Source: Giardia intestinalis (Eukaryota). Taken from it: a DNA stretch of 64,000 nucleotides. Of this stretch, positions 1 through 28,742 are shown in pieces. Location: NCBI GenBank assembly GCA_000002435.2, contig CM018789.1, one strand, 5' to 3'. Positions within the stretch are counted from its first letter, which is position 1; each line of letters opens with the position of its first letter. The position numbers and the translations under genes were made by a program. The notes beneath the pieces are model-generated. The model did not search any database, was not told where the DNA came from, and was given only the letters and a program-made list of their open reading frames with translations.

Positions 1-812
1 CCTACCCTACCCTACCCTACCCTACCCTACCCTACCCCTACCCTACCCTACCCTACCCCTACCCTACCCTACCCTACCCTACCCCTACCTACCCTACCCT
101 ACCCCTACCCTACCCTACCCTACCCTACCCTACCCTACCCTACCCTACCCTACCCTACCCTACCCTACCCTACCCTACCCTACCCTACCCTACCCTACCC
201 TACCCTACCCTACCCTACCCTACCCTACCCTACCCTACCCTACCCTACCCTACCCTACCCTACCCCTACCCTACCCTACCCTACCCTACCCCCTACCCTA
301 CCCTACCCTACCCTACCCTACCCTACCCTACCCTACCCTACCCTACCCTACCCTACCCTACCCTACCCTACCCTACCCTACCCTACCCTACCCTACCCTA
401 CCCTACCTACCCTACCCTACCCTACCCTACCCTACCCTACCCTACCCTACCCTACCCTACCCTACCCTACCCTACCCTACCTACCCTACCCTACCCTACC
501 TACCCTACCCTACCACCCTACCCTACCCCCTACCCTACCCTACCCTACCCTACCCTACCCTACCCTACCCTACCCCCTACCCTACCCTACCCTACCCTAC
601 CCTACCCTACCCTACCCTACCCTACCCTACCCTACCCCTACCCTACCCTACCCTACCCTACCCTACCCCCTACCCTACCCTACCCTACCCTACCCTACCC
701 TACCCTACCCTACCCTACCCTACCCTACCCTACCCTACCCTACCCTACCCTACCCTACCCCTACCCTACCCTACCCTACCCTACCCCTACCCTACCCTAC
801 CCTACCCTACCA
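1..812 (-). repeat. Telomeric repeat array: (CCCTA)n on the plus strand = (TAGGG)n on the minus strand; physical chromosome terminus at coordinate 1
   Basis: About 160 tandem pentamers with sporadic variant units (CCCCTA, CCTA, CACCCTA, CCCCCTA). There is a sharp junction to unique GC-rich DNA at 812/813 (ccctaccctacc|aagtatcgcc). The G-rich strand runs 5'->3' toward position 1, as expected for a terminus. TAGGG is the established Giardia telomere unit. Confidence 0.95.
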
Positions 813-3435
813 AGTATCGCCCCCTCGTGCTCCAGGGGCGGGCGGCCCACATCCTCCCCGTCGTGGTCGGTGCTGACGGCGTCCTGCACCACCTGTCTGC
901 GGCCGGACTCGCGTTCGCCGGCGTGGACCTTGCGCGCTTCATGCAGGAGGCGGCGCAGGTCATCCTCTGGCACTACAGGCTGTCGGCCCTCCTGTACGCT
1001 GGGCTGCGAGTGGAGAGGCCGGTGCACCGCCCCGCCCCTGCAGTATCCCTGCCGGAACCGGCTCCCAACGAGGCTCGGGCTACTCCTCCTACTCCCCTCA
1101 CCCCTGCCATGTGGAGCCCTGGCACGTCGCCCTCCGTAGAGATCATGGCCGATCTCAGCCAGCATCCTGATGCGGCAGTCCCTCCTCCCTGGGGTCCTGC
1201 TGAGGTCTCCTCCTCGATCACCTGGGGCACCGATCACCCCGCACAGCCGGATGCAAACGAACGCCCAGACCCCTTCATGTGCTCAAGGGCCCCCTCCCCG
1301 CCTCCACTGGATGACGACAGCCCCGACGATGCAGGAGCACCCGAGCCGGTGCACAAGGCCCTGCCGTCCTTCTTCAAGCGCGTCGGTCCTCCCAAGCCGC
1401 ATGCCCCTGATGGCTTCTACCCCTTCAAACGCATCGACACGGGGCGCTAGTGGTCATGCTTGGGCACCCTGCCCGCTGTCGGCTGCCCCACAGCGCGAAC
1501 GGACCCCTGGGCCTGCGTGCCGAGCTGTCTCCCCTGGTACTCCTCGCTCGCACCCGAGGCCTCTTGCCCCTATCATTCGGGTGTGCATCACGTCCAGACA
1601 CGGTGCGATAGATGCCTAGCCGCGATGCCATACACACTCGACCAGGCCGGGCCAGGCCGGACGCCCCCCTGGATGGCCAGACACCCGCCCTGCCTACGTT
1701 TGGGCACTTCCTCGATGGGACTCGTCATCTGCCCACGCCGCAGCCCGGTGTTCGTCTGTCTGTCCTCCCGGGCAGCGGCGGTCCTTGGGTGCTGAGTCTG
1801 GCGAGCTGGTGCTGGGGGAAGAGGCTAGCCCCGTGTGTCATTCGTACCATCGCACCGCGCCGTGCTGATCCCCCCATGGAACTGCCCGCCAGTGGCCGCC
1901 TCCGGTCCGGGGCGGCACAGCCCTGGCTCGGGCCATCCTCTGCTGCAGCGCCCCGGTGCCCCCTGGAGAGGATGGCCGGGTGCTATGTGCTACTGAGCCC
2001 TCGGGTGCATCGCTTCCCCACTGCCCCCCCTCATGTACCCACTCTGGGCGCCCCGGTACAGGGAACCTGGTCACTCTGGCCCTGGCCTCCAGGTGCTTGC
2101 CCTCCAATGGGCCATCCCTCATGCGCCTGTGTTTGCCTGGCCCATTCTCCCCTGCTCCTCTCTACCTCTCCTGCTCGGTCTCCGCTGAGTCGCGGTGACG
2201 GCTGTTGACAGTCCCGGCCGGGCCCCCAGGTTTCGCTCCATACCTGGGCCACATGCCTCCCACCAGCGCTGGCACCACATGGGTTGCTTGTCACAGATGG
2301 GACTGGCACGCACAGAAGAATATGGCTCCACGGCGCTCTGCCGGTCTGTCCTGAGCTGGCGTCATCAGCCTGGACCCGCCCTTAGGGGGCCTCCTCCATC
2401 ACCCGTGCCTCCCCACACCACCTCCTAAGCCGTCAGTCTGCTCTCTCAGGCGTGACCTTCTGTCGGCCTCCTGGGCCGTATGGGACCACCGCCCCGCTGC
2501 CCCCGCCATCTTGGCCAGACGCCTCCGGTGAGCCACCATTCTGGAATAGCACGACACGTGTGGATGGGCTAGCTATGGTGCACGGTCCGCACCCTCCCTT
2601 CTCACGGACTCCCGGGGACAGTCCGGACGCGTCTCCCTTGTCCCCCGAATCGGTGGCCCCGGCCGATCCCCATCGTGCATCCTTATATGGGGCACTGCAC
2701 ACACCTGTCCACGCTGTCCCCTTGGGCCGGCCACAGCTCACCCCGTGTGTCGATGGGCCAGAATTTGGGCTCCCCAAACCCCTCCACCCCCAAGCTGTTT
2801 CCTCGCCGGTTCTCTGGGCTCGCGCTTCCCTTTTTAGTGCAACAGCATTATGGTGCCTCGCGTATGTGCGCGGTGCAGTGGGCCGGTCTGTAGGCCTGCC
2901 TTTGACTGGAATCCTGGATCCCTGGGTTTCTGGCCCGACGCGTCGTCTTCTACCCCCCAAACAGGCCTGCACTCTTCTTGGTCCACGGGCTATTTGTCTC
3001 TTTGTTTCCGCGGCCCAGGGCCTGCTGGTTGCGCCGGGGCGACGCTCATGGTGGATTTTATTTTTTCCAAAATCCAGAATTTGGGCCTGAAGACCGCCCC
3101 CGCAGGGCCTGGAGGATGCGGGGAATCGGTCCACCCACACCATGCGCTCGAGCAAAGGCCAAGCACCCACGCCATCACGTCTCATCCAGGACTCCTGCGC
3201 CGCCACGGAGGAGGATCGGCACCTTCGCCATCGATCCTCCAGGATGCCCCCCTACCACTCCCCCTCACATGGCACGCCTCCCTCGGGCCTGTATGTCTGC
3301 ATGCCGCTATGCCCTAACACCGCAGGCCGCCCTCTCCGCGGATCCACTAACACACAGCCTGCAGCGCCTGGCCCCCCTGGCCGTGACCCGCGCGCCCCCG
3401 CGCACAGGAGCATACCCCTGGAGCTGGGGAGAAGG

Positions 3436-3520
3436 CCCCCCTGGCCGCGCCCCCGCCGCGAGACCACGCGGGCACGGGGGCTGGGCGCCCCGGGCGGGCC
3501 CTTCCCCTCCGTCGTGAGGC
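3436..3520 (+). repeat. Direct repeat unit, copy 1 (about 85 bp, about 90% identical to copy 2)
   Basis: gggagaaggcccccctggccgcgcccccgccgcgagaccacgcgggcacgggggctgggcgccccgggcgggccc... recurs at 3810-3895; both translate to ...RRPxWPRPRRETTRARGLG... Confidence 0.8.
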
Positions 3521-3809
3521 TGCCTCCCCTCCAATGTCCTTACCGCCTTGCGCGCATATTACGTAGTAAACCGCCTCTGGCGTGCCTGGACCCGGCCCCC
3601 AGGGGGCCCCCTGATCTCCCTCCCGCCTGCTCCCTGGGGCAAGGGAAGCTGCCCTTCACACCCCCGCATGGTGCTATGCAGTATATGTTGCTATGTCCCT
3701 GCCACCCCCGCCCAGGGCCTCCCGCCAACTGACCCGCAGCCCCCGTCTCTGGGCCCGCCCGGCCGCCCGAGCTCAGCGCCCTCCGCGCTCGGCAGACCCC
3801 TGACGCCGG

Positions 3810-3895
3810 GGAGAAGGCCCTCCTGGCCGCGCCCCCGCCGCGAGACCACGCGGGCACGGGGGCTCGGGCGCCCCGGGCGGACCCTCACCCCTCTG
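3810..3895 (+). repeat. Direct repeat unit, copy 2
   Basis: Same about 85-bp sequence as 3436-3520, offset by 374 bp. Confidence 0.8.
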
Positions 3896-4283
3896 ATGGG
3901 AGGCTGCACCTCTTGTAGGACCTGGCGCACACGTAGAAGTAAATATCCCTCTGTGTGGGCCTCCCTGGACGTCAACAAGGGGACCAGGGCCCCGGTGGAG
4001 CTGTCGGTGGAAGGCCAGGCACTGCAGGGGAAGGGGTCTACTCCAACCGCCTCCTCAGCCACACACCAGCTTCCGGACAGAGCGGCGACGTACTGTCTGC
4101 AGATGTGCGGCGTGCTGACCGAGGAGGAAGGGGCCCTGAAGGAGAGGGGCGGCTCTATCATGGCGCAGAAAGAGGCACCTGCCCGGGCTGCCACGAGGCA
4201 CGACATGATCGTCGCGTGCCTGTACCTCCGCGTCTCGGGGAAGTTCAACGCAGAGCTGGAAATCAAGACCCACAGCCACCTCA

Positions 4284-4379
4284 GCGACCAGAACCAGAAG
4301 CCCGACATCTGGCTCGTCGACAGATGCAAGGCGGTGGGCGTGGGTGTCATCCAGCAACCGCATGGATACCACAGCGAGA
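4284..4379 (+). repeat. 96-bp dispersed repeat, copy A (inverted partner at 17141-17242)
   Basis: gcgaccagaaccagaagcccgacatctggctcgtcgacagatgcaaggcggtgggcgtgggtgtcatccagcaaccgcatggataccacagcgaga is identical to the reverse complement of 17141-17242, apart from one extra CCAGAA hexamer in copy B. It translates to ...DQNQKPDIWLVDRCKAVGVGVIQQPHGYHSE in both ORF-track entries. Confidence 0.9.
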
Positions 4380-5431
4380 GGACAGGGGCACAGGGACGTT
4401 CTCAACCATCTACGGGATGGACGGCTCCCCACTCCAAAGACGCCAGGAAGGCCCCGCGGGCACTGAGAGCCCTGTCCGGCCCTCGCTGTCCATGTGGCAG
4501 CCTAGTACCCAGGGACTCCTTCTGTCAGCCTATTTCCAACCACCAAGTGGACCCACTGTGGGACCAGAGTGACTACGGCTGAGAAGGAGTGCTGGCCCAG
4601 AACCACGGTCAGACGGACACCGAGGGGCAACAGAGGCGACTATCATCACTCCCAGAGAGCCACAGTGACAGGAGACATATCCGCTCTTAGGGGAAGCAAC
4701 GACCAGAGATAAATAACGACGCTCCCTCATAGCGAGCCACGGCCCCACCCACTTTCTATTGCCAGGATAGACTCTCACCGAACCAGGACCACCAGTGGAG
4801 CCGAAGTCCCAACGGCTACTGCCGTTGAGTCAGGTGGAAGCGATGTAAAACGAACGCAAAGGCCCGCCCTCGCCTGTTGTGAAGGATGGCTAAAGGGGAG
4901 GTCGCCACTAGCGGACCACACGAGGCTGTGAGAAGGTCAGAACTCTGGACAGACTGGCGTGCGAGCATCTCTGGAGGCACGCTCGGCCTGGGCACACGCC
5001 TGTGGAGCGATCGAAGGAGGCACCAGGCTCTGGACGTACTGATAGAGGAAACCTTTCACTATGCTATCCGCGATCACCCTTCCCTCCGGCCGTGACCAGG
5101 AAGCGGGGAGGCCCGCTCGTGAGGTCTCCGAATGCACCTGCAGGCCCCAGCAGCACAGCGCACTTCTCATGAGAACTGGACGGCATCCAATTTTCGCTTT
5201 TGGAGTCCAGAGAGGTGAGTGAGCAGAAGAGCCCCAATAAAAGGCTCCATTCACAAACTGGACCCAGTGCAGAATCTATCGTTGGCAATCATAGTACTAG
5301 CACTAGTTGCTTTTTACGCGTTGCTTCTGGATATGCGGGTCTTCAATGTATGGTACAGGCACTCTGCAACTGACTAGTGTGTCCGGCCACAGGCAAGCAC
5401 CGAAAAACATCAGCAATTAAAAATCTACTAA

Positions 5432-7795
5432 TGCTGGTATTATTGTTCCTCGCCGTGTTCTCTGGCAGCCCAGACAGACGACAGGCCTACTCCAGACAGG
5501 GGTACTCACTACGGTGTCTGTGAGGAGGACCAGCCTGATTGTGTGGAAATAGGTGCGCCATGCTCGCTCACGGGAGGCCTCCATGTACCGAATGCAAAGC
5601 CGGAAAAATCCCTATCGACGGAGAGCGTGTGGAGCCAGCGCACCAGGCATAGCTGTGTGTGAACAAGAAGGTGTTAGTGGCAGTGGAACACGCTGTAAGT
5701 CATGTGCTGGTGGAAATGGAAGTAGGAATACTGGTGACGGCGTAGGTTATTTTCTATTTTATGGGGGCTGCTACAATAATGATGAGTGGCCTGGCACAGA
5801 CATCTGCGAGACCGTTTCAAACGGGGTATGCACAGTTTGTGATACTGAGTATGGGGCTATTTTTACGAATCCAGATACTACCACCGATGAAAGACGTATC
5901 CTATGTCGTGATACGCTATCCGGAATGGAAGGCTGTGCGACCCGTGTGTCCCTTCCTCAGAATCCTGCGCCAGACAATGCAAAAGGCGCCACCAATCTCC
6001 AATGTACTTCCTGCTTAGATGAGACCAAAGCCCCAATCGATGGAGTATGCGCAACCTTTGGCTCTAACAGGTGCAGAAAGGATACTGTACTCATTGTGTA
6101 GTTGGTGCTTGTCTAGGAGCGGATGCTCGGTAGCAGTAAGGAGGGAGCTAAAGTATGTGCTGAGGTCAACCAAACAGAGATGGGTGGCTATTCTGCTTGT
6201 GCAGTGCACCAACACTAGTGAGGCCCACACAATGGAAACTGTAGGCAGGTAAGTATTTTACACAGCTGCCAAAAGGATAGCTCAGCCGGAATGTGCGCAG
6301 CTTGCAACCAGCATTTCTATGGTCGCCCTATCTTCCTGTACAAGGGCGGCTGCTACGTCATCACTGACCCATTGGAGACACCATATGCAAAAAGACGTTC
6401 AACGGTAAATGTACTATTTGCAATGAGGACCAAGGGTACTTCATGAAGGATTCGCCATGTACTAGATGCGATGAGTTTGTCCCCGGTTGCGCTGTGTGCA
6501 CCCCTAGCCCTGATGCCTCCAGTGCTCCTGTGTGTGCCAGTTGCAAGGCCGGGAAATATGCAACTGTAGACGTGCTTCCTGTGTCGACTCATGTCCATCG
6601 GGTAGCTCAGGTAGCTGCGATAAAAATAATGTCTGTAGCTGTAAGTGCAGTACAGGAACCTACTTGGATACTGTCACAAATACACATAGCACATGCAATT
6701 CAGCCTGTACGGGTCCTGGGGCTGATAAGTGCACGTCCTGTGTCTCAGGAAAATATCTCAAGCGTGATGCACCTGGTGCCATTGAATGTGTAGATTCTGT
6801 TGACTGTGGTGAGGGGTATTATGCAGATAGTGCCACTAACACTTGTTCTTCGTGTGGTATTGACAAGTGCCAGACGTGTGTGTCTGATAGTGGTGTGGTA
6901 AAGTGTATGAAGTGCCTTTCTGGGTATCTTTCCATCGATAGCCTTTCATGTCAGTCCCAGTGTGATGGACCAAATCAGCAAGGACATGCCAATGGCAAAT
7001 CCGTTTGCGAATGCATTGCAGGGGCTTATCTGGAGGGCTGTGTCCAGTGCGACTCAGCACGCCTGGAGTGGGTCCAGGGTCTGATCACTGCACAAGTGCT
7101 CCTCGGGAAAGTACACCAAGATGAATGGTTCTGACACGGCCACATGTGTCGACGCGTCTGGCTGTGGCGATGGATACTATGCGGATCCAGAAGAGCTCCA
7201 GTGTGCCACATGTGGAATTGAGAGCTGTCAAGCATGCACTCCTAAGGATAACAACCTCGTGTGCACACGGTGCTCCCCCGGACTTGTCTCCGTCGATGGC
7301 TTCTCGTGCCCACTCACATGCACGGAGCTGGATCAGAGAGAGGAGGATGGAAGGTGCGTCTGTGCAGAGGGCTTCGAGCCCAGCAGTGACGGCGCATGCA
7401 TCGCTAGGAACACCTGCCCGTCAGACGCCACGGGGTGCTCGAGTTGCAACACAAATGGCGAGTGTCTTTCATGTGCAGACAGCAGCCACAATGTCCAGCC
7501 GAGCAAGAGATCCTGCGCCTCAGGCTGTCCAAGCGGATCACAATCAGTCGGCTCTCTCTGCATATGCATAGAGGGGTACACCCTCAGGGGTGACACATGC
7601 GTCTCTCAGACCAGGAAGGCCGGCTCCAGCTCCACGACGATCATCGTGGCAGTCGTTGTCTCTCTTCTCATCATAGTGGCCGTCGCCCTCGCATGCTGGT
7701 TCGTCCTGCGGAGGCGGAGAGAATCGAGGGCAGCTTTGAAGACAAGGGTGATAGCTGAGAATATGAAGCTCGTGGGGACGGTGGACGAGCTCTGA
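5432..7795 (+). pseudogene. VSP/HCMP-like cysteine-rich surface protein gene broken by at least four frameshifts (pseudogene)
   Basis: An AT-rich initiator caattaaaaatctactaATG at 5432 is followed by a signal peptide MLVLLFLAVFSG. The reading frame then hops across three frames (ORF-track pieces 5553-6101, 6532-7134, 7121-7795 plus untracked segments). There are two GGCY motifs (YFLFYGGCY, FLYKGGCY) and many CXXC pairs. The C-terminus has a TM segment IIVAVVVSLLIIVAVALACWF and a long cytoplasmic tail (RRRRESRAALK...) of HCMP type, not CRGKA. Confidence 0.6.
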
Positions 7796-9416: not shown

Positions 9417-10928
9417 ATGCTAGTACTACTACTATTTTCTATTGCTTTGGGATGTGCCTTGGGTACACCTTTTACTAACGAACCTGAACATGGAATGGGG
9501 GTCCGCTTCACCCGACGCGGACTGGAGAAGTTCTGCCAGAAGGGCTACTCTATCATTCCTGACGTTATCTCTGCTCTTCCAGCGTTTCCAGAGATACCCA
9601 TAACTGTCGGGTCTTTGAAGCTTACCCTCTCGAATGTGAGGCCTCGTGCAGTGCGTGTTTCAACCATGAAGGTCTACTTGCAAGACAACAACTTTGTCAA
9701 GATGGAGGCCCGGGACGGCATCATGCAGATCTCGATGCGGCTTAAAACTACCATCACTGGGATCACCGGGACCGTCGACTGCATCTTCACCCTCAAGGAC
9801 TTCGGGGCAGACATCTCTCTGAGGCTCGGAGACGACCCCACCTGCCCCTACCACTTCGGGCTCTCCGAGATATCGAACGTCGTGTACTCGTCTGGGCTCG
9901 ACATCGATGCGATCGGACTCGACACAGGCGGGTCTGTCCTTGCAACTGCCATCCAGGGCATGGCGCCCACGTTGGAGGATTTGATGAAGAACACCGTGTT
10001 GCAACTCCTCTTTAACACAATCTTCAATTCAATAAAGCAGTCAATGCTCAACCTGCCCTTAGTTGTCCAGATCGGTGATGACTATCTGACTGACCAGCGC
10101 TACATCAACGGCATCAATGTCGTCGATAACAAGATAGTGGCAGACCAGGGTGGGTTTTCAATGATCGCTACTATCCCAGATTGGTCGGTCAGAGCTCTCT
10201 ATCCAAACAAGATCACCTCTCCCCCTCCGAAGACAGTCTACACCGACAGGGACTATGAGTTCTATGTAGACAGGGAATCAGTTAACTCCTACCTGTATGC
10301 CTGGCACGTGGCGTATGACAAGTTCAAGGCAGACGGTCTCACTGTCCCGTACAGCACCATCAGGGCGCAGAACATACCCGGCCTTGCAGAGGCTCTTGTG
10401 AAGGCCGGACTACTAAGCACTGTTAACGACCTTGGACTCGGGGTCACCCTGACCCTGTCTGTCAGTCCCTCCAAGGATGCCGCACCCCACATACCGTGGA
10501 TCGGGGCGGCTGCACTACCGGTCAACCTCACGGGGGCACTCGTTGTGACAGCTAGCAAGGTATCAGACCAAACCCCTGTAACTCTGGCCAACCTTGAGGG
10601 CGACGTGCTCTTCTCTTCTGCGCTCAAGCTTAAGAAGTTTACCTATGGATTTAACAACGACCAAGTTCGTGCATATGTAGAGCTTCTTGGAGTGCACGAT
10701 ATCGCCACCAAGAAGCACAGCGAAGGGATGGATGATCCTGTTCCTCTGCTGAAGCGTCTTCTTCTAGATAAGTACCTCCCCCTTGTTAACCCGATCCTGG
10801 CCGAGACAGGGGTGGCCCTCATGAACGGGAACTTCATCGACTATGCCACTGTCGACGTCATTTATCTGTGCAGCGAGGACAGGGTGCTCTTCGTTGCCGA
10901 CATTGAGAAAAACCAGTACTTTGCTTGA
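9417..10928 (+). CDS. BPI/LBP/CETP-family lipid-binding protein (bactericidal permeability-increasing-like), secreted
   Basis: 503 aa with a signal peptide MLVLLLFSIALGCALG. The N-terminal segment FTRRGLEKFCQKGYSIIPDVISALPAFPEIPI..LKLTLSNV aligns with the BPI N-terminal domain (..ISQKGLDYASQQG..IKIPDYSDSFKI..). The two-domain length fits. ATG at 9417 is preceded by AT-rich aggataataatttctctgaATG. Confidence 0.6.
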   Translation: MLVLLLFSIALGCALGTPFTNEPEHGMGVRFTRRGLEKFCQKGYSIIPDVISALPAFPEIPITVGSLKLTLSNVRPRAVRVSTMKVYLQDNNFVKMEARDGIMQISMRLKTTITGITGTVDCIFTLKDFGADISLRLGDDPTCPYHFGLSEISNVVYSSGLDIDAIGLDTGGSVLATAIQGMAPTLEDLMKNTVLQLLFNTIFNSIKQSMLNLPLVVQIGDDYLTDQRYINGINVVDNKIVADQGGFSMIATIPDWSVRALYPNKITSPPPKTVYTDRDYEFYVDRESVNSYLYAWHVAYDKFKADGLTVPYSTIRAQNIPGLAEALVKAGLLSTVNDLGLGVTLTLSVSPSKDAAPHIPWIGAAALPVNLTGALVVTASKVSDQTPVTLANLEGDVLFSSALKLKKFTYGFNNDQVRAYVELLGVHDIATKKHSEGMDDPVPLLKRLLLDKYLPLVNPILAETGVALMNGNFIDYATVDVIYLCSEDRVLFVADIEKNQYFA

Positions 10929-15862: not shown

Positions 15863-17140
15863 CAGCCTGGCTGGAGTGACCGGGCCACTGACTATTGTAA
15901 TCCTGTCTTCGCACAGCGACGTGCCCCGTACTGTGCATATTGTCATAAAGCGGGGAGGGCCATCCTCCTGACCCAGTAAATTATGGGAAGCCCAATTGAA
16001 ACCTGAAGCGTCGAGTGGCCTGATCGAGACAGTGACCATTCCTAGAGCTGTATTTGTGTTTCCTATCTTTTACTAGATTGGTATGCATCAGTCTGGAGCA
16101 TTAACATCTGTAGGGAATATAGTTGTCGTGCCATGGTCATTGAAGGTAGCGGCTACACGGTCCGTCAGGCAATATGCAGTACACCATATGCCCCTATGTG
16201 ACCTGCAGCGATGCGTGAGCCTGCGTATGGTGAGTCACTCTCCCATAGACTGCCTCCAGGCCGTGCTTCATCTTCTATCTGGCTGGACACCTAATTAGTC
16301 ACCCTACATTCGCTGACTGACATGTATGGCCTCTAGTCTGACTGCTGGAGCTACTTGTCTTGGTCTTGAGCTCTGCATTGAACTTCTCTGACAGGTAAGG
16401 CACAGACAGACGACCATGCCATGCCCGTAGCCTTCTCTCATGCAGCCAAGGCTCTGCATCCGATGGCCAGACCTTAACGGCCATCTACCGAGCTCGGGCA
16501 CATCCTAGGTCCAGCACAGCACTAGGCGTTACTGGCAGGAGTACCTTGTATCTCACAACTTTACTGATGTCCGTTATAGATTATACTAATGGGCCCTCAT
16601 ACTCCCAGTTTACAACTAGAGCATATAGAGTCCTGCAGTTACCGTCTCAACTGAGTACTACGTCCCTCGTAGATAGTAGCGGCATTAAGGCTGGACGCCA
16701 GAGCTGGCCCCAGACAGCTGAGTTAGCAAGGACACGTTACCATGGAACGGTGCGTTAGAGGTTGCCTATGTGGTGCCTGTTCAGTCTGAGCGTAGGCGTC
16801 AGGGGATTTCGCATCTGGTCTGTTGAGGTCCAGCCCTCTGCAATCTCGGGTAGACTCTAGGTGGTACCTCCCCTATGACATGTCTGGTGGGCGAGGGATA
16901 AGGGCACTGCTGGCCTTTCCAGGTGTTCCCATCTGTCTCGGTTGCAGCCATTGGTGGCCCTGGTCATACGGGCCCGTCCATGATCAAAAGCACACTGACA
17001 GAAGGCAGTCGCTCTGAGTGGCCTCGTCGGGTGCTCACTCCCTATAGGTGGCGTAAGGCCATGGACAGAGGACTCCTCGAGGTGCTTCTTGGACTTGGGG
17101 TGGAGGGATCCGTCTGTCTCGTCCTTGTACTTCTTGACCT

Positions 17141-17242
17141 TCTCGCTGTGGTATCCATGCGGTTGCTGGATGACACCCACGCCCACCGCCTTGCATCTGT
17201 CGACGAGCCAGATGTCGGGCTTCTGGTTCTGGTTCTGGTCGC
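17141..17242 (-). repeat. 96-bp dispersed repeat, copy B (102 bp including a CCAGAA hexamer expansion)
   Basis: Reverse-complement identity to 4284-4379. An additional weaker match (aagttcaaYgcagagct, encoding KFNAEL) lies contiguous in copy A (about 4240) but about 750 bp away in copy B (about 16380). Confidence 0.9.
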
Positions 17243-17494
17243 CGGGCTGGTCTGATCTCTGGCCCATGTTGCATTCCCCGAGACACAGAGGCAACGATTG
17301 CACGGGGCCCCTAGTTGTCGCTTTGCACCAGTGGAAGGGAGCCCCTGCTTGCCGTCTACGATCATCCCATCCTCAGAGAGCCTGGCCTGGGCGGGCTCTG
17401 AGTGCGCCTCAGGCGGGCCCAGCAGCACAGCCCTAGAGGTGGCCGGGTGGAGTGAATCATCGTGGGATGCACGTAAGGAGCGCACAGGTCCGGG

Positions 17495-20400
17495 GCGCCC
17501 GAACAGGCCCAGCCCTCGCACCGGCTCCCCCGGTCGCCTCAGTCGCGGCGCTAACAGGAAGACGCGTGTCCTGTTCGACGACCCGGCACACGGACCGACG
17601 GCCGGCGGACCGCATGGCAAGGTGGAATAAAAAGTTTGAAACGTCGGCGCTCGCGCGAATCGGAATGCGGCGTTCTCCGGGCTGGGAGGCCGTGCGTGCG
17701 GGCATTACCTCTAGCATGTTCCTCACCACGGTCCCAGGCTGATGGGCGGCCGAGGCCTTGTCAGCGTCACGCACGCCTCTTGCCGGCATTGGGCCGCCCG
17801 GGATCGTACATAGGCAGGGCTGCAGAGGCCTTCCGCGGCTCCTGCGGGCAGTCGCCTGCTGCGGAGAGCACGCCCAGCTTGGGAGCTCCTCAGGATCACC
17901 GTGCAGGTCATCGAGACCGGTTCGACGGGCCCACGTTGAAGGAGGCGCATGGGCCGGTGAGCGTGCCGTCTTTGCAGGCAGGCTCTCGCTGGCCGGGTGG
18001 CGGGGCTCTCCTGTATCTCCGCCGGAGGACGCCCTATCTACTGGCAGCATTTCCACAGTTGCAACGCTACAGGGGCGGGCTGCAGCTCTTCCGCAGGACC
18101 TCGTCGGACGGGCAGTTGGCGTACTCTCACGTGCACTCGCAGGAGCTCCCCGCCCTCGTAGAATAGCACCCCGCGCGCCCCAAAAAGCCAAATCGAAATG
18201 CAGCAGGTGCAGTCGACTCTTCTCGGGTTGTGGCGCTGATCCAATCAGACGCCGCGGCACGCCCCGAGCAGGCCTCGTCCAGCAGCGGGTGCTCTAGCCG
18301 CGCCCCTGAGGCAAGTCTGCTTCTGACCCCGTCCCTGTGCCGACCCCAGCGAGCCCCCGACGGCGCTGGAGAAGGAGCGCCTTGCGGAGCCCCTTACTGG
18401 CCCCTCGGTGCAGGAGGATCCCCGGATTACCGATTTGCGTGCGGCAGCCGGCGGGGCGCCCCGGGCCATCCTTACATCTACATGTCCAGCGAGTGCCGCA
18501 GCGGGCCGAGATGAAGCCGCGGGCGCCGATGCCGGGGCGCTGGCCACGGAGGCTGCAGCGTTAGTAGCCAGGCGAACCCCTTGGTTCGCGTTTTAGTTTT
18601 TGGGGTCCCAAGTTAGCGCCCCCGGAGCAGCACCGGCTGTACACTGTTCACTGCACTCGGTCGGCCGGATGGTGTAGCAGCTACGGCTACTCTAATTACG
18701 GCGCTTGATGTGTTTACTGCTGGGGGGTGCTGCTCTCCGTTCTACGGGGTGGCAGGAGTGCTCCCGCGTGCAGGTAGTACCAGTGGACGCCCCTCAGCTG
18801 CCGGGCCGGAGCGGCTCTTGGATGGGTGGACCTATCCTCCTCCGTGCGGCCGTCCCTCGGGCCTAGTAGACGTGCCTTGCTGTGTCCCGCAGCCCGGATC
18901 CTTGCCTTCAGACGCCAGCACGGAACTCTCTAAATTTGTCCTCCTGTGACATCCTATGCTGCCATGCACACTTCGTTTCTAGCAGGCCCTTAAGGTTGCA
19001 GCCCAGGACTACCGGCCCCCACATCATCAGATATGGTTGCTGACTGCGGCCGCCTACGCAGTCGCAGCTGGTTCCGCACTGGCCCTGTATCGGTAGCCTT
19101 GGCCTGCATCGCCGGTGTGCGGCCCACTTCGCTCTGCGGGTGTACCACGTATAGTTACCAGCCTCGTGATGTGGTGCACCGCTGGGGCAGATCCTAGCGG
19201 CAGTAATCCTGCAGCCCCATGTGGTCGTCTGGCAGTGGATGCGAAGGTTTGCAGGCGGGAGCGGAAGGTCGGGATGCTCTTGCCCACGTCACCGGGCGCC
19301 GTGGTCAAGGGCTCCGAAGACATGCCCAGCCCTCCGCTGGACGAGGATCGATGGGCCGCTCAGAGCCCCGCAAGCTGCGTCCAGGCTGGTATTAGGTGGC
19401 CCAATGACGTGGCGACGGGAGTTGTGAGGCGAGACCGCCACACGCCGAGCGTCGGGCCATTGCTACACCGACTCCCCAAAGGGACACACTCAGCCCGGGG
19501 CCGGATGTCCGCTTGTGTCCCAGAGTGAGCGCCTTGCATGCTTGCCGCGAGCAGCTATCTAGGGCTCGAGGTTAGCGGGCGGGCTCCAGCTATCGCCCCC
19601 TCATTGTCTCGGCCACCGGGACAGAACTCCCTTCTCCGGAGACGTGATCCTCGGGCCTGTGTGGCTCCCCTTCTTTGGAACGGGCTGGCTGTAGCCCTTC
19701 CGTATCATAGCCAGTGCTCTCTGAGGCCCTGATGACGCGCGGCTGTGTCTTGCACGTGTCGCTACAGTGGGACCCGCGCCTGTCCGTCCTTGCGTCGCCT
19801 ACGGTGTAACCAGGGGCGACCCGGGCACGCTCCTATCGGCACATGGCGCCCTCCGCTGTGCTGGCTCCTGACGGCAGCCCACTCTACCGGGTCTGGTACT
19901 GCAAGGACCACCTATAGTGGGGGCAGGCGGGTGCGTCTACGCATCACCTCTGCGCTGTAGACAGTAGACGGCACGCCATCAGTTAGCACAAGATCCGGTC
20001 CGCGTCTTCTCCGGCTCTGTATCCATCGGGCTATGCTAACCATTACTATAGCCGCCCTATGACAGAACTAGGCCTTGCTTCGCAGAAATCCAAAAACAGG
20101 GGTCGTAGATCGGGCGGCGCGGGTCGCCCTCGGGCTAATCCACTGCCGCGGCACGGCCACTGCGGGCCCGTCCAGGTGGCCATGGAGCTGGGGGCGGCCT
20201 CGGTCGAGGATCATCGCTCGACGCGCCTCTCCTGCAGCGGCCAGGGCGTCCCGGCCGGTCTCGGGCGACGAGGACGCTATTGAGGCACGGAGAAGTACGG
20301 TGGCCCACAGGATTCGGCGGGGGGCCGGATCGCGCAGAGCTGGTTGAGGAGACTAGAGCGCCAGCCAGGCCGGGGCGCCGCCGGGGAGGCTGATATGGGT

Positions 20401-20722
20401 TTAGGTTACAGCGGGGGCATCTGGGCCGTCGTCTGCTGGCTCCAGGGCAGAAGAGCGGTAGACATGCCGGGCGGTCCCGCTGCTTATTTTTGGATTTTCT
20501 ACTCTTTCACGCTGCATAGAAGGGGTGAGATCTTAGGAAAAACCGGGCTTTGAGGGTCTACTGGCATCGTGAAAGAGCAGTAGGCTGTACAGTGACGCGT
20601 TTACTACCTAAGTGGATGCCACTTACGCCTTCCCCCGACAGATGAACCACCAGCAGAGGAACCCTATGAGGCCCCCGACGACGACGATGGCTGCGACGGA
20701 GATCCCCGCGATGGCGCCAGTG
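17495..20722. repeat. Left arm of a 3.2-kb-arm inverted repeat (partner 25515-28742); symmetry x <-> 46237-x
   Basis: ORF-track entries are mirrored with a constant coordinate sum of 46237 (e.g. 20344-20553+ vs 25684-25893-; 18230-18514+ vs 27723-28007-). The arms are indel-free from about 17640 to 20620, with only a few amino-acid substitutions visible (E/K; PSR/TFR; A/T, P/H, V/M). The arm is about 68% GC with no recognisable gene. The inner end overlaps the last ~35 codons (~100 nt of conserved tail) of the VSP CDS. Confidence 0.9.
20599..20622 (-). promoter_or_regulatory. Conserved VSP 3' end / extended polyadenylation signal, mirror copy for the minus-strand VSP
   Basis: Exact reverse complement of 25615-25638 (the two positions sum to 46237). 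Confidence 0.75.
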
Positions 20723-22266
20723 CTGAGGCCGCTCTTGTTCATACTGTCTCCTCCAGTGTCTCCGCCGGTGCCATCGTCAGTCTTTTGTTGTGTCAAATAA
20801 CAAGTAACAGCCCCGGAAGAACTGGCTGGCTCCTTGCAGCTCAGACAGTTTGGTACGCCTTTAATGCTTCCATCATCCTTGTCGCATGCTACGCACTTTG
20901 TTCCGGACTTATAGTATCCCGGGAAGCACTCCGAACACTGCTGTGAAGGAGCACTTCCTGTACATTTTGAGCAGCCAGCTGGACATGTCGGACAGACCTT
21001 TCCACTGGGCTGTTGTCCGTTCGCGCAAGTAGTGCACTCTCCATTGTTAGCTGCCGTGCAGACAGCCTTTCCAGGAAGCTTCGCCACACCATAGCATCCA
21101 CCAGAAATGAGGGCGTATGCTCCTGTGCACGCCGTGCACTTCCCGCTTGCAGCTGTGCATACACTCGCGTCTCTCCCAATTTTTACTGCTGTGCACACTC
21201 CGTCGATTGGGGCATATCCCTCCTTGCACTGGGCACAGTACTTCGCGCCCCCCACGTCAGCCGTGCACTGCCCGTCTGCACAGTTGGTAATGAACGCACC
21301 AGTGCATTCCTTGACGCACCTCCCAGTCGCTCCGTTGGCCTCATACAGAAGGGAGTGTCCAGGGTAGCAGGCCGTGCAGGAGGTCTCCTTGTCGTCGGTC
21401 TGGCAGCTGGCACACGACGAGTGGCAGGGGGTGCAGACGTTTTGCTTGTCGTATGTCCCGGCGGGGCAGTTGTCCATGCACTCGTCCTTGAGGGGGCTGA
21501 CCTTCTTACTAGCATGACACTTAGAGCAGGTGACCTTGACTCCTGCTTCAGGAGCAGGTGCTCTAGGTATGCATAGTTCGCAGTCTTCTATGCCACCGCT
21601 TCCAGCTTCACTACAGCCAGCACACTTCTTAACACCGTCGACGATTGTCGGGAAGAAGCCCTCGCCGCATCCTGATTCCGCGACGCACTCCATAACGCCT
21701 CTATCTATTTTCAAGTAGAGGTCTGCGGCACATTTGGTGCATATGGCGGCCTTAGTGCCACCAATTGATAGTTGCCCTGGCTGAGTACAGGTGACGCACT
21801 CGGCCACGCCCGTGTACTTCTTATCGCCAGTAAGCGTCACGCCCGTTGTATCCCCGCACGAAACAACCGAGTCGTGTGCGTTATCAGTGCCCGGCGGCAG
21901 GAAGTATCCTTCCTTAGCCTGTGTGCACACTCCAGCATTTGCTGTTTCACACATCGTGTTGCCAGGTGCCTGGCTATCCTTGTAGCATCCGCCCTTGTAC
22001 ATGAAGGACTTATTAGCGCACTGTGTGCACTTCCCATCTTGCTTCCGGGTACACTCGTTATTGTCTGCTGAGCACACTCCGTCCGTTGGGGCAGATTGAG
22101 ACCCACCGCCGTTGCACTGCGAGCAGTATTTCTTGCCGTTGACGACGGCGCTACAGGCCTTGCAAGTGTTGGGCTCACTGCTAGCTACCTCTTCGCATTC
22201 GTCTCCGGCTTGCGCTGCCCGTACTAGCTCGAGTGCGAGACCGGTCAGCAAAAATGCATAGAACAT
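20623..22266 (-). CDS. vsp: Variant-specific surface protein (VSP), 547 aa
   Basis: Signal peptide MFYAFLLTGLALELVRAAQA, numerous CXXC motifs, GGCY motif (MYKGGCYKD), and C-terminal TM plus the invariant tail GLIGFLCWWFICRGKA*. The ORF track extends to a TTG at 22293; the first ATG is at 22264-22266. Confidence 0.9.
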   Translation of the reverse strand: MFYAFLLTGLALELVRAAQAGDECEEVASSEPNTCKACSAVVNGKKYCSQCNGGGSQSAPTDGVCSADNNECTRKQDGKCTQCANKSFMYKGGCYKDSQAPGNTMCETANAGVCTQAKEGYFLPPGTDNAHDSVVSCGDTTGVTLTGDKKYTGVAECVTCTQPGQLSIGGTKAAICTKCAADLYLKIDRGVMECVAESGCGEGFFPTIVDGVKKCAGCSEAGSGGIEDCELCIPRAPAPEAGVKVTCSKCHASKKVSPLKDECMDNCPAGTYDKQNVCTPCHSSCASCQTDDKETSCTACYPGHSLLYEANGATGRCVKECTGAFITNCADGQCTADVGGAKYCAQCKEGYAPIDGVCTAVKIGRDASVCTAASGKCTACTGAYALISGGCYGVAKLPGKAVCTAANNGECTTCANGQQPSGKVCPTCPAGCSKCTGSAPSQQCSECFPGYYKSGTKCVACDKDDGSIKGVPNCLSCKEPASSSGAVTCYLTQQKTDDGTGGDTGGDSMNKSGLSTGAIAGISVAAIVVVGGLIGFLCWWFICRGKA

Positions 22267-23544: not shown

Positions 23545-25614
23545 ATGTTATTAACAGCCTTTTATATTGTGCTGGGCTCCTTTGCAGCACCTTGCCAGCA
23601 AGACGGAGACCACATAGTGACCTGTCAGGTCAATAAGTGCGAGACGGTCGGGTCAGCCGAGATTTGTACCGAGTGCAAGGTCGGAGGCGTCCCGGTCGAC
23701 GGCTTCTGCCGACCCTTCGGCTCCATCCAGGCCGCGGCGGCCGGGTGCACCAAAGCAGACGGGGCTGCTCTCGACAAGATGACAGCAACCTGCGAGAAGT
23801 GCGGCGACGGGTACTTCCTCTTCATGGGCGGGTGCTACAAGACAACCGACGGGCCCGGCAGCGAGATATGCACAAAGGCTGAGGGAGGACTGTGCACTGA
23901 GTGTAAGACAGCTAACGGCCTGTTCAAGAACCCGGCTACACCTCAGAAACCTGGTAGCGAGTGCATCTTGTGCCATGATGCCACAAATAGAAACGGGGTC
24001 ATGGGAGTGGATAACTGTCTCAAGTGCACGGCACCTGGTGGCAATACAGGAGCGGCCACGTGTACTGAGTGCATGGCTGGAACGTATAAGAAGAGTGATA
24101 CAGAGTGTGCTGCATGCCACAGCGACTGTGCCACATGCAGTGGAGCCAATCAAAATCAGTGCACATCGTGCGAGACAGGGAAGTACCTGAAAGGGACTGA
24201 GTGTGTAGACAAAGGTACGTGTAACAACAATCACTACCCCGATGACACTAGCATGACCTGCGTTGCCTGTACTGTCCTCGATGCCAACTGTGCAACATGC
24301 TCATTTGATAGTGCAACGGCAAAGGGCAAGTGTCTGACTTGTAATTCAAATAAGATTCCCAGGACAACCCTCGACGGAACCTCGACCTGTGTGGAAAATT
24401 CTTATGCTGGGTGTCAAGGAGCTGATAACGAGCTGTTCATGAAGGAGGACCAATCGGCGTGCTTATTATGCGGAGATACTAAAGACGTGGATAATAACAA
24501 TAAAGGCAAAGAAGGGTGTAAGACATGCACTAAGAGTGCAGATGGCTCCCCTCCAACTTGCACAGCTTGCCTCGATGGATACTTCTTTGAACAGTCATCA
24601 AACACTTGTGAGGCTTGTGGGGCCAACTGTGTCACATGTTCAGCTAAAACAGATGAGACTAAATGTAAAACGTGCAAGGAGGGGTTCTTCCTGGCCGGCA
24701 CCGGCGAAGGAAAGTGCATCTCGTGCGAGAATGGTAATGATAGTGGCTACAGCGGGCTTGCAGGATGCCTCTCTTGCACAGCCCCAGCCGCCCCGGGCCC
24801 GGCCAGCTGCAACCGCTGCAAGATCGGCTACAAGTTACAGGGAACAACGTGTGTGAAGACCTGCGAGGATACAACGGCTTGTGGGGGTACTTCTGGCGCC
24901 TGTGATGCTATAGTAATAGATGATAAGGGCAACACAAAGCATTATTGTTCCTACTGTGGGGATAGTGGTAAGTTCCCTATTGATGGTATATGCACTGATA
25001 GCAAAGGAACAAATGCTGGGTGTACTGATCACATTTGCAGCTATTGTGCTCAAGGGTACTTCCTATACATGGGTGGCTGCTATAGTACAGCAAGTCCACC
25101 TGGCAACTATATGTGCAAGACAGCTGAAGGTGGCAAGTGCACTGCTGTTAATGATGGTAATAGGTACTTCATAGTCCCAGAAGCAAAGGCTACTGATCAG
25201 TCTGTGTTGGCTTGTAGTAACCCCCTAGGCACACTAGTAGGCACTGATAGTGCTGCTAAGGCATATGTGGGGGTACTCAACTGTTCACAGTGTAAGGCCC
25301 CAGCAGCTCTGACTGAGGCTGGTATGACTGCTGCTGTCTGTACCTCCTGTGACAGTGGTAAGAAGCCCAACAGGGATGGCAGTGGGTGTGTGACATGCTC
25401 TGTGGGTGATTGCAAGAGCTGTGTGATGGATGATGTGTGTGGGGAGTGCAGTGATGGGTACAGTCTGGAGGGTGGTAAGTGTGTGTCCTCTGGCAGTAAT
25501 AGGAGCGGGCTCTCCACGGGGGCCATCGCGGGGATCTCCGTCGCTGTCATCGTCGTCGTGGGGGGCCTCATAGGGTTCCTCTGCTGGTGGTTCATCTGTC
25601 GGGGGAAGGCGTAA
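23545..25614 (+). CDS. vsp: Variant-specific surface protein (VSP), 689 aa
   Basis: Signal peptide MLLTAFYIVLGSFAAP, CXXC repeats, GGCY motifs (FLFMGGCYKT, FLYMGGCYST), and C-terminus ...GLIGFLCWWFICRGKA*. The ORF track starts at a GTG at 23503; the first ATG is 23545. Head-to-head with the other VSP; the starts are 1.28 kb apart. Confidence 0.9.
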   Translation: MLLTAFYIVLGSFAAPCQQDGDHIVTCQVNKCETVGSAEICTECKVGGVPVDGFCRPFGSIQAAAAGCTKADGAALDKMTATCEKCGDGYFLFMGGCYKTTDGPGSEICTKAEGGLCTECKTANGLFKNPATPQKPGSECILCHDATNRNGVMGVDNCLKCTAPGGNTGAATCTECMAGTYKKSDTECAACHSDCATCSGANQNQCTSCETGKYLKGTECVDKGTCNNNHYPDDTSMTCVACTVLDANCATCSFDSATAKGKCLTCNSNKIPRTTLDGTSTCVENSYAGCQGADNELFMKEDQSACLLCGDTKDVDNNNKGKEGCKTCTKSADGSPPTCTACLDGYFFEQSSNTCEACGANCVTCSAKTDETKCKTCKEGFFLAGTGEGKCISCENGNDSGYSGLAGCLSCTAPAAPGPASCNRCKIGYKLQGTTCVKTCEDTTACGGTSGACDAIVIDDKGNTKHYCSYCGDSGKFPIDGICTDSKGTNAGCTDHICSYCAQGYFLYMGGCYSTASPPGNYMCKTAEGGKCTAVNDGNRYFIVPEAKATDQSVLACSNPLGTLVGTDSAAKAYVGVLNCSQCKAPAALTEAGMTAAVCTSCDSGKKPNRDGSGCVTCSVGDCKSCVMDDVCGECSDGYSLEGGKCVSSGSNRSGLSTGAIAGISVAVIVVVGGLIGFLCWWFICRGKA

Positions 25615-28600: not shown

Positions 28601-28742
28601 AACTTTTTATTCCACCTTGCCATGTGCATTCGCCGGCCGTCGGTCCGTGTGCCGGGTCGTCGAACAGGACACGCGTCTTCCTGTTAGCGCCGCGACTGAG
28701 GCGACCGGGGGAGCCGGTGCGAGGGCTGGGCCTGTTTGGGCG
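25515..28742. repeat. Right arm of the inverted repeat (partner 17495-20722)
   Basis: Reverse complement of the left arm; near-identical apart from SNPs and a single indel near the outer boundary (about 28640). Confidence 0.9.
25615..25638 (+). promoter_or_regulatory. Conserved VSP 3' end / extended polyadenylation signal (GTGGCATCCACTTAGGTAGTAAAC)
   Basis: AGTAAAC (Giardia AGTRAAY poly(A) signal) lies 18 nt after the stop codon, within the characteristic CTTAGGTAGTAAAC VSP 3' motif. Confidence 0.75.

What the first reader, a model, noticed from the sequence alone, without database searches (positions are those of the whole stretch)
813..5000. 4.2-kb GC-rich, ORF-less telomere-adjacent block: possible non-coding remnant of a telomere-associated element
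GC content is about 70%, against roughly 46-50% in the gene core. Only Pro/Arg/Gly-rich pseudo-ORFs occur, in every frame, and there are internal direct repeats (3436/3810). The block contains copy A of the 96-bp dispersed repeat, whose copy B sits 260 bp from the outer edge of the VSP inverted repeat, linking the GC-rich blocks. Giardia telomeres are reported to carry tandem non-LTR retrotransposons (GilM/GilT). A 5'-truncated element or other non-coding repeat family is a hypothesis I cannot confirm from sequence alone. No RT (YxDD) or endonuclease motif is present.
Basis: inference. Interest (0 to 1): 0.5.

Follow-up and report, generated by a model that had tools for sequence, protein, structure and literature searches.

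The report
Truncated GilM retrotransposon capping Giardia telomere
The GC-rich block next to the telomere is a stack of three broken, same-direction copies of Giardia's known retrotransposons (a GilM-type element, a short related 3' end, and a dead GilD-like piece), which is the arrangement already described for Giardia chromosome ends.

Summary
The window is the end of a 1.49-Mb chromosome record of Giardia intestinalis WB-C6. After 811 bp of (CCCTA)n, bases 810-3580 are 99.7% identical, without gaps, to the 3' half of a 5,474-bp tandem unit. That unit encodes a 1,109-aa zinc-finger/reverse-transcriptase/restriction-like-endonuclease protein. Its length equals the one Xu et al. 2020 give for GilM.

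- The block is not ORF-less. Bases 812-1450 are the intact last 212 codons of that ORF, 100% identical to the annotated WB protein.
- Bases 1451-3580 are its 2.1-kb non-coding 3'UTR, ending in an AGTAAAC poly(A) signal.
- Bases 3581-3952 are a second, diverged 3'-terminal fragment of a related element. This explains the 3436/3810 direct repeat.
- Bases 3953-4709 (weakly to about 5160) are a frameshifted, deleted GilD-like endonuclease pseudogene.
- The "96-bp dispersed repeat" is a 93-nt perfect match to a second GilD-like remnant at 16987-17407 on the minus strand.

All three pieces point their 3' ends toward the centromere, and each is 5'-truncated at its junction. The telomere joins at a CC/GG microhomology.

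The finding is already known biology (Arkhipova & Morrison 2001), so interest is low.

The parts
1..811 (-). Telomere tract: (CCCTA)n on the + strand, which is (TAGGG)n on the strand running 5'->3' toward the chromosome end, with occasional variant units
   Evidence: Read directly. GC skew is -1.0. TAGGG is the Giardia telomere repeat (PMC7000408).
810..811 (.). Telomere/element junction. The CC (GG on the G-strand) is shared by the telomere repeat and the element, a 2-bp microhomology.
   Evidence: Window ...CCCTACC|AAGTATCGCC vs unit L002 ...AAGGCCGCC|AAGTATCGCC. The BLAST match starts at 810.
812..1450 (+). Last 212 codons plus TAG stop of the GilM-type ORF. It starts at the K-Y that follows the restriction-like endonuclease core and has no start codon of its own.
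   Evidence: 100% identical to P0108 residues 898-1108. Profile hits go to 883-1134-aa RVT_1 proteins with the match at their C-termini. The homologous tail in P0001 is 39-49% identical.
1451..3580 (+). 2.1-kb GC-rich (66.5%), C-skewed non-coding 3'UTR of the GilM-type element
   Evidence: Window 810-3464 = L002 2820-5474 (99.7%, 8 mismatches, no gaps). Window 3458-3578 = L002 1-121. No frame or DNA conservation with the second Gil family except in the last ~150-250 nt. No Pfam hit for its long ORFs.
3405..3530 (+). Conserved 3'-terminal segment of the UTR, predicted to form a long G+C hairpin. It is a candidate recognition site for the element's reverse transcriptase.
   Evidence: It is the only UTR part conserved across families and in L001. 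RNAalifold predicts 38 pairs, but only 3 have compensatory changes and most are invariant, so support is weak.
3565..3571 (+). AGTAAAC, the Giardia-type polyadenylation signal of the GilM-type element. The A-run that follows it in tandem units is missing here.
   Evidence: Window ...ACGTAGTAAACCGCCTCTGG vs L002 ...ACGTAGTAAACCCTCTCTCAAAAAACCATG. That AGTRAAY is the Giardia poly(A) signal comes from my own knowledge.
3581..3952 (+). Second, diverged 3'-terminal fragment (~370 bp) of a related Gil element, 5'-truncated, ending AGTAAATATCCCTCT (signal at 3938-3944). Its 5' boundary is uncertain by about 8 bp.
   Evidence: 86-88% identical to the last ~135 bp of the GilM unit and 75-77% to the last ~200 bp of a second family (L003-L005). 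It aligns over ~300 bp to element 3' ends.
3392..3523 (+). Copy 1 of the internal direct repeat, which is the 3' end of the GilM-type element. Copy 2 is 3776-3907, the 3' end of the second fragment.
   Evidence: 86.7% over 135 columns. Family D1.
3953..4709 (+). GilD-like dead remnant: the linker/endonuclease part of a degenerate RT/endonuclease ORF, 5'-truncated exactly at 3953. A 56-bp deletion removes the CCHC motif, there is a frameshift after PD..D, and a catalytic-region D is changed to G.
   Evidence: 44 Giardia hits named 'Reverse transcriptase/endonuclease, putative', 45-89% identity. 88-93% DNA identity over 3953-4429 to DHA2 copies L008/L009, which carry RVT_1 ORFs just upstream. 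tblastn extent 3953-4709. Sequence comparison.
4710..5160 (+). Probable 3' continuation of the GilD-like remnant (weak evidence). GC falls to 55% here.
   Evidence: Co-linear 62-68% similarity to the region downstream of the GilD-like copy in L009. Otherwise unassigned.
4287..4379 (+). Copy A of the 93-nt perfect inverted repeat, inside the GilD-like remnant at its PD..D region
   Evidence: 100% complementary to 17141-17233. The flanks diverge sharply.
16987..17407 (-). Second GilD-like remnant in opposite orientation. It holds copy B (17141-17233) of the 93-nt repeat.
   Evidence: tblastn hits of 39 GilD-type protein fragments. 87-96% DNA identity to L008/L009.

Best explanation
The block is the terminal retrotransposon cap of a Giardia chromosome.

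Shown:
- It consists of three remnants in the same orientation, with their 3' ends toward the centromere.
- From the outside in: (a) the 3' 2.77 kb of a GilM-type (Genie-1-primer-matching) non-LTR element, meaning the last 212 codons of its ZnF-RT-endonuclease ORF plus its 2.1-kb 3'UTR; (b) a ~370-bp 3' end of a related, diverged element; (c) a GilD-like dead endonuclease fragment.
- Each inner piece is 5'-truncated exactly where the 3' end of the next outer piece begins.
- The outermost piece is 5'-truncated where (TAGGG)n begins, at a GG microhomology.

Inferred mechanism:
- Elements were joined by their 3' ends to a receding chromosome end, or sat in a head-to-tail terminal array.
- The exposed 5' side was lost by erosion or breakage.
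- Telomerase then healed the end inside the GilM ORF.

The fragment cannot make protein, because it has no start, no RT and no endonuclease core. It most likely acts only as expendable buffer DNA between the telomere and the first VSP genes, and possibly as a template for the retroposon-derived small RNAs reported in Giardia. The high GC, the C-skew and the Pro/Arg/Gly 'pseudo-ORFs' are simply the composition of the Gil 3'UTR.
For: - Organism and location. Three window proteins are exact matches to G. intestinalis WB-C6 proteins on a 1,485,438-bp record. The telomere tract is at 1-811.
- Identity to the unit. Window 810-3464 = L002 2820-5474 at 99.7% with no gaps, and window 3458-3578 = L002 1-121. 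L002 is a 5,474-bp circularly permuted unit whose ORF has RVT_1. Xu et al. 2020 state that one GilM copy is 5,474 bp.
- Protein identity. The tail is 100% identical to P0108 (KAE8301202 etc., 'putative Reverse transcriptase/endonuclease', 1,109 aa). P0108 has a C2H2 finger and RVT_1. Its best solved relative is the R2 protein, with co-linear ZnF, RT and CCHC/RHD/PD..D segments.
- Naming cross-check. The Genie-1 primers of PMC1950533 match L002 exactly.
- The other two pieces. Second 3' end. GilD-like remnant.
- Literature. Gil elements form head-to-tail, same-direction arrays between subtelomere and telomere. They show 5' truncations attributed to terminal erosion and have unusually long 3'UTRs (PMC5537684; PMC10999387).
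Against: - No A-run follows either 3' end in the window, although tandem units have A6-A12 there. The joints are therefore not textbook poly(A) junctions.
- Whether the pieces arrived by end-addition or were left by deletion or breakage within an older array cannot be told from one locus.
- The label GilM versus GilT rests on Xu et al.'s unit length and on primers named Genie-1. The original GilM/GilT/GilD sequences and paper (PMC64710) could not be read.
- The 3'-hairpin idea has only 3 compensatory pairs.
- No expression data were available.
Confidence: 0.9

Rival explanations
1. The block is the leftover of an ordinary internal head-to-tail Gil array that was inserted site-specifically by the element's own endonuclease, as Burke et al. 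proposed for Genie 1. A chromosome break inside the array was later healed by telomerase, with no end-targeted transposition at all.
For: - The element family encodes a restriction-like endonuclease.
- The telomere joins at a GG microhomology typical of de novo telomere addition.
- WB holds tandem arrays of the same unit elsewhere.
Against: The joints 3580/3581 and 3952/3953 are not the array joint (…CTCTCTCAAAAAACC-ATG) seen in tandem units. Instead they abut 5'-truncated copies of different families, which simple breakage of one homogeneous array does not predict.
Confidence: 0.3
2. The GC-rich region 1451-3580 encodes one or more real proteins, for example the 198-aa (+) and 257-aa (-) ORFs that automatic gene callers also call in the full unit. 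On this view the element would have a second ORF rather than a long 3'UTR.
For: There are long ORFs at 1612-2208 (+) and 2433-3206 (-). The corresponding genes are called on L002 at 3622-4218 (+) and 4443-5195 (-).
Against: - Neither ORF has a Pfam hit.
- The second Gil family aligns at 71-77% through the ORF, but not at all through this region at DNA or six-frame level, apart from the last ~150-250 nt.
- Long ORFs in every frame are expected at 66% GC.
Confidence: 0.04
3. The block is a non-retroelement subtelomeric repeat, such as an rDNA spacer or a GC-rich satellite shared with the other GC-rich blocks of the window.
For: Giardia chromosome ends often carry rDNA. Other GC-rich blocks exist at 17.5-20.7 and 25.5-28.7 kb.
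Against: - No Rfam family reaches its threshold anywhere in the window.
- The block is unique in the window except for the 93-nt patch and its own internal repeat.
- It matches the Gil unit at 99.7%.
- The other GC-rich blocks match neither Gil units nor Gil proteins.
Confidence: 0.01

Closest known systems
GilM / GilT telomeric non-LTR retrotransposons of Giardia (Arkhipova & Morrison 2001); Genie 1 of Burke et al. 2002
   Same: - 99.7% identical to the 3' half of the 5,474-bp unit that Xu et al. call GilM.
- The ORF tail is 100% identical to the annotated WB RT/endonuclease.
- It has a long 3'UTR and sits between the telomere repeats and the subtelomere.
- Its 3' end points toward the centromere.
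- The terminal copy is 5'-truncated and capped by TAGGG repeats.
   Different: - This copy lacks codons 1-896 (zinc finger, RT, endonuclease core), so it is non-autonomous and non-coding in effect.
- No A-run follows its poly(A) signal.
- Its neighbour is not another full unit but a 370-bp diverged 3' end.
- Which of the two original names (GilM or GilT) applies could not be checked against the deposited sequences.
GilD, the 'dead' Giardia retrotransposon family (Genie 2)
   Same: Bases 3953-4709 match many short, frameshifted Giardia 'Reverse transcriptase/endonuclease' fragments that sit on large chromosomal contigs. The remnant carries deletions and a frameshift of its own. It is only 26% identical to the GilM-type protein over the same domains.
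   Different: The assignment to GilD is by description (degenerate, dispersed, distinct family). No sequence labelled GilD was available. [quoted passage not shown]
HeT-A / TART / TAHRE of Drosophila telomeres
   Same: - Head-to-tail arrays with the 3' end toward the centromere.
- Variable 5' truncation of the terminal copy.
- Unusually long 3'UTRs and strand-biased composition.
- In the tandem Gil unit, the ORF start lies 2 nt after the previous unit's 3' end, so upstream-copy sequences would have to supply the promoter, as in HeT-A (inference).
   Different: Giardia has telomerase repeats outside the elements. Gil elements encode a restriction-like rather than an AP-type endonuclease and belong to the R2/CRE-like early-branching group.
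R2 and CRE/NeSL-type site-specific non-LTR elements with restriction-like endonuclease
   Same: The parent protein has an N-terminal C2H2 finger, a central RT and a C-terminal CCHC + RHD...PD..D...K endonuclease. Its best solved-structure match is the R2 protein (E = 6e-9).
   Different: There is no rDNA or spliced-leader target here. The window copy retains only the segment after the endonuclease core.

Membership tests
GilM/GilT (Genie 1) telomeric non-LTR retrotransposon | Nucleotide identity to the family's repeat unit | tested here: met
   Window 810-3464 and 3458-3578 match L002 2820-5474 and 1-121 at 99.7% and 98-100%. The L002 length of 5,474 bp equals the GilM unit length in Xu et al.. 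The Genie-1 primers match L002 exactly.
GilM/GilT (Genie 1) telomeric non-LTR retrotransposon | Single ORF with zinc finger, reverse transcriptase and C-terminal restriction-like endonuclease | tested here: not met
   The parent unit and protein have them (RVT_1, zf-C2H2, CCHC/RHD/PD..D). The window copy keeps only the last 212 codons, downstream of the endonuclease core. It is therefore a truncated member, not an autonomous one.
GilM/GilT (Genie 1) telomeric non-LTR retrotransposon | Unusually long 3'UTR ending in a poly(A) signal and short A tail | tested here: inconclusive
   The 2.1-kb UTR and the AGTAAAC signal are present. The A-run seen in tandem units (A6-A12) is absent at both 3' ends in the window.
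GilM/GilT (Genie 1) telomeric non-LTR retrotransposon | Located between telomere repeats and subtelomere, uniform orientation, terminal copy 5'-truncated and capped by TAGGG repeats | tested here: met
   The telomere at 1-811 abuts the element at 810-812. All three remnants are on the + strand with 3' ends inward. This matches the description in PMC5537684.
GilM/GilT (Genie 1) telomeric non-LTR retrotransposon | Match to the originally deposited GilM or GilT sequence, to decide which name applies | not testable with these tools
   The original paper (PMC64710) is not held, and no sequence labelled GilM or GilT was reachable. AAL47180.1, a 2001 deposit, is in the same 90% cluster as P0108, but its record name does not say which element it is.
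GilD ('dead' family) | A distinct RT/endonuclease family present only as degenerate copies with deletions, substitutions and frameshifts | tested here: met
   There are 44 fragmentary Giardia homologues of 123-331 aa. The remnant is 26% identical to the GilM-type protein. The window copy has a 56-bp deletion, a frameshift and active-site changes.
GilD ('dead' family) | Match to a sequence labelled GilD/Genie 2 | not testable with these tools
   No labelled reference was available. The sources name the homologues only 'Reverse transcriptase/endonuclease, putative' or 'hypothetical'.
Subtelomeric rDNA unit | rRNA genes detectable by covariance models | tested here: not met
   No Rfam match at gathering threshold in the whole window.

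The most novel reading that the evidence does not exclude
The three nested joints would be a fossil record of successive retrotransposon additions to a receding chromosome end. The order is a GilD-like piece, then a diverged Gil 3' end, then the GilM-type element, then telomerase repeats. Each outer 3' end is attached, without an A tail or target duplication, to a 5'-eroded inner copy. This would imply that the now-dead GilD lineage was once telomeric too, and that Gil elements can prime directly on free DNA ends, independently of their endonuclease, as HeT-A and TART do.
Probability: 0.25. Interest if true: 0.4.

Novelty: already known. Interest (0 to 1): 0.12.

Why it matters
It gives this chromosome end a base-level annotation: telomere, junction, ORF tail, 3'UTR, second 3' end and GilD-like pseudogene. 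It shows that the long GC-rich ORFs, which gene callers tend to call here, are not genes. It also gives one clean example of a telomerase-healed, 5'-eroded Gil element with a 2-bp microhomology. It does not change what is known about Giardia telomeres.

Tried and rejected
- Pfam scans of the block's long ORFs gave nothing.
- An Rfam scan of the whole window gave nothing, so rDNA is excluded.
- Self-BLAST and tblastx of the block against the window found no other Gil copy, only the 93-nt patch and the internal repeat.
- The first word-indexed protein search with the ORF tail returned only one metagenomic hit and missed the 100% identical WB protein. That protein was found later via the exhaustive profile search and a search seeded with P0089.
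- Exact-protein look-ups of P0108 and P0119 found no contig. P0123 did.
- I looked for the source family of the second 3' fragment in the loci of a second Gil family (L003-L006) and in a DHA2 contig (L007). Identity was only 75-77% or absent. One exact-pattern scan of JGI metagenomes found nothing.
- A strict G4-motif count showed no enrichment (1 + 1 motifs in the GilM part). The published high PQS density was therefore not reproduced with a G3+ / loop 1-7 pattern. Only the C-skew (-0.17) is confirmed.
- Pfam scans of ORFs in the other GC-rich blocks gave nothing.
- The papers PMC64710, PMC64657 and PMC1151983 are not held.
Full report
**What the window is.** Bases 1-811 are (CCCTA)n with a few variant units, the complement of the Giardia telomere repeat TAGGG (PMC7000408). 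Three ORFs further in (9417-10925, 30017-31228, 31689-32438) are exact matches to Giardia intestinalis WB-C6 proteins: GL50803_0061453, a bZIP protein and a pseudouridine synthase. All three lie on a 1,485,438-bp record. Two ORFs at 20.6-25.6 kb hit the Pfam VSP family. The window is therefore one assembled end of a WB-C6 chromosome. That it is chromosome 1 is my inference from the record length.

**Checking the observation.** GC is 66.1% over 813-5000, with 500-bp windows at 59-71%, against 47.9% over 30-64 kb. The + strand is C-skewed at -0.17 in 812-3580. Thirty-three ORFs of at least 60 aa occur in all six frames. The internal direct repeat (3392-3523 / 3776-3907, 86.7%) and the dispersed repeat (4287-4379 / 17141-17233, 93 nt, 100%, inverted) are real. 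No rRNA or other Rfam family is present. The compositional observation stands, but 'ORF-less' and 'no endonuclease motif' do not.

**The outer piece, 810-3580.**
- *ORF tail.* The frame entering from the telomere reads KYRPLVLQGRAAHILPVVVGADGVL... and stops at 1448-1450. A profile of this tail and its one first-pass homologue was searched against 1.84 billion representatives. It found six proteins. Two of them are 883- and 1,134-aa proteins with RVT_1, with the match at their C-termini.
- *Annotated WB protein.* A search seeded with the 883-aa Giardia assemblage-B protein found 26 Giardia-type RT proteins. One is P0108, a 1,109-aa WB-C6 'putative Reverse transcriptase/endonuclease' (KAE8301202-4, KAE8302557). 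Its residues 898-1108 are 100% identical to the window tail. P0108 has a C2H2 finger and RVT_1. Its best solved relative is the R2 retrotransposon protein, with co-linear finger, RT and CCHC/RHD/PD..D segments.
- *Full unit.* A cluster member (P0123) lies on a 5,474-bp contig, L002. Window 810-3464 equals L002 2820-5474 at 99.7% with no gaps, and window 3458-3578 continues into L002 1-121. L002 is thus a circularly permuted tandem unit, and the window holds its 3' 2.77 kb.
- *Naming.* Xu et al. 2020 give exactly 5,474 bp for one GilM copy in WB. The primers that Chen et al. 2007 call Genie-1 match L002 perfectly. I therefore call it GilM-type. I could not check the original GilM/GilT deposits, because that paper is not held.

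**The 3'UTR, 1451-3580.** In the unit, the ORF stop is followed by about 2.1 kb ending ...ACGTAGTAAACCCTCTCTCAAAAAACC-ATG. This reads as a Giardia-type AGTAAAC signal, an A6 run, and then the next unit's start codon two bases later. A second Gil family (L003-L006) aligns with the unit at 71-77% through the ORF. Through the UTR it aligns only in the last 150-250 nt, and no reading frame is conserved there. Neither of the two longest ORFs has a Pfam hit. The region is therefore non-coding, and its GC richness explains the Pro/Arg/Gly pseudo-ORFs. The conserved terminal segment is predicted to form a long G+C hairpin, but only 3 of 38 pairs show compensatory change. A role as the RT's recognition site is inference.

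**The middle piece, 3581-3952.** Where the unit has its A-run, the window continues with ~370 bp. This stretch aligns to the 3' ends of Gil elements over about 300 bp. It is 86-88% identical to the last ~135 bp of the GilM-type unit and 75-77% to the second family. It ends AGTAAATATCCCTCT at 3952. I could not find its parent family.

**The inner piece, 3953 to 4709 and perhaps about 5160.**
- From 3953 the + strand reads VWASLDVNKGTR...CLQMCGVLTEEE...RHDMIVACLYLRVSG...KPDIWLVD.
- It hits 44 Giardia fragments of 123-331 aa, mostly named 'Reverse transcriptase/endonuclease, putative', at 45-89% identity. Several sit on contigs above 100 kb.
- At DNA level, 3953-4429 is 88-93% identical to two assemblage-A2 copies, which carry RVT_1 ORFs immediately upstream.
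- The window copy starts abruptly inside the element and lacks 56 bp covering the CCHC motif. It is frameshifted after PD..D and has G where the relatives have D.
- Protein similarity runs to 4709. Weak co-linear DNA similarity suggests it reaches about 5160.
- It shares only 26% identity with the GilM-type protein over the same domains.
- This fits the published description of the dead family GilD, but no labelled reference was available.
- A second such remnant lies at 16987-17407 on the minus strand. The 93-nt perfect repeat is a patch shared by these two remnants, whose flanks diverge sharply.

**Junctions and mechanism.** At the telomere the window reads ...CCCTACC|AAGTATCGCC where the unit reads ...GCCGCC|AAGTATCGCC. 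On the G-strand the eroded end therefore finished in ...CTTGG, and TAGGG repeats follow. This 2-bp microhomology is consistent with telomerase healing. All three pieces have the same orientation with their 3' ends inward, and each inner piece is truncated at its 5' side exactly at the next joint. Neither joint carries an A-run or the array joint seen in tandem units.

This matches what reviews report from Arkhipova & Morrison 2001. They describe head-to-tail, uniformly oriented arrays between subtelomere and telomere, 5' truncations attributed to terminal erosion, and unusually long 3'UTRs.

What is shown is the identity, order, orientation and truncation of the pieces. What is inferred is how they arose. 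I favour attachment of elements by their 3' ends to a receding end, followed by erosion and telomerase healing. The alternative, a break in an endonuclease-built array, is less consistent with the heterogeneous joints but is not excluded.

**What the other GC-rich blocks are not.** Bases 17492-20734 and 25503-28746 are arms of a 99.4% inverted duplication. They have no similarity to Gil units or proteins and no Pfam hits.

**Verdict.** It is a textbook instance of a known system in the reference strain in which that system was described. Novelty is 'already known', and interest is low.

Noticed in passing
window 4287-4379 (+) and 17141-17233 (-): The 93-nt perfect match lies inside two GilD-like remnants that share variants absent from other copies. 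The two remnants diverge abruptly on both sides of the patch. It looks like a short gene-conversion patch between inverted copies 12.7 kb apart.
   Followed up: partly
window 17492-20734 and 25503-28746: A 3.2-kb inverted duplication at 99.4% identity flanks the two divergently placed VSP genes. The arms are 64% GC, have no Pfam hit in their ORFs and no similarity to Gil elements, and their content is unexplained.
   Followed up: partly
L002 108-133: In the tandem GilM-type unit, the 1,109-codon ORF starts 2 nt after the A6 run that follows the previous unit's AGTAAAC signal. The element therefore has no 5'UTR of its own, and any promoter must lie in the upstream copy's 3' end, as in HeT-A (inference).
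   Followed up: no
window 1133-1447 (ORF tail); P0001, P0086, P0087, P0088: The otherwise fast-evolving, Pro-rich C-terminal tails of Gil ORFs (35-48% identity between families) keep four short motifs: SPSVEI, SRAPSPPP, KALPSFFKR and FYPFKR. Their function is unknown.
   Followed up: no
window 3572-3580 and 3945-3952: Both element 3' ends in the window stop at ...CCTCT with no A-run. Tandem units of three families have A6-A12 at that point.
   Followed up: partly
L002 3622-4218 (+) and 4443-5195 (-); window 1612-2208 (+) and 2433-3206 (-): Automatic gene calling places 198-aa and 250-aa 'genes' inside the GC-rich 3'UTR of the element. They have no family hits and no cross-family conservation, and are probably spurious.
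   Followed up: yes
L007 (GCA_000498735.1, AHHH01000176.1): A Giardia DHA2 contig with a Gil-like RT ORF also carries bacterial-type genes (SLT transglycosylase, guanylate kinase, exonuclease VII small subunit). This suggests contamination or a chimeric contig.
   Followed up: no
The word-indexed protein search with the 211-aa tail returned only one metagenomic protein. It missed P0108, which is 100% identical over the whole query, so a negative from that tool was misleading here.
   Followed up: yes
window 5553-7795: VSP-like ORFs lie directly inside the retroelement stack: 5553-6101, 6532-7134, and 7121-7795 with a C-terminal transmembrane-type match. They are split over three frames, so this is probably a VSP pseudogene or a sequence with frameshifts.
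   Followed up: no
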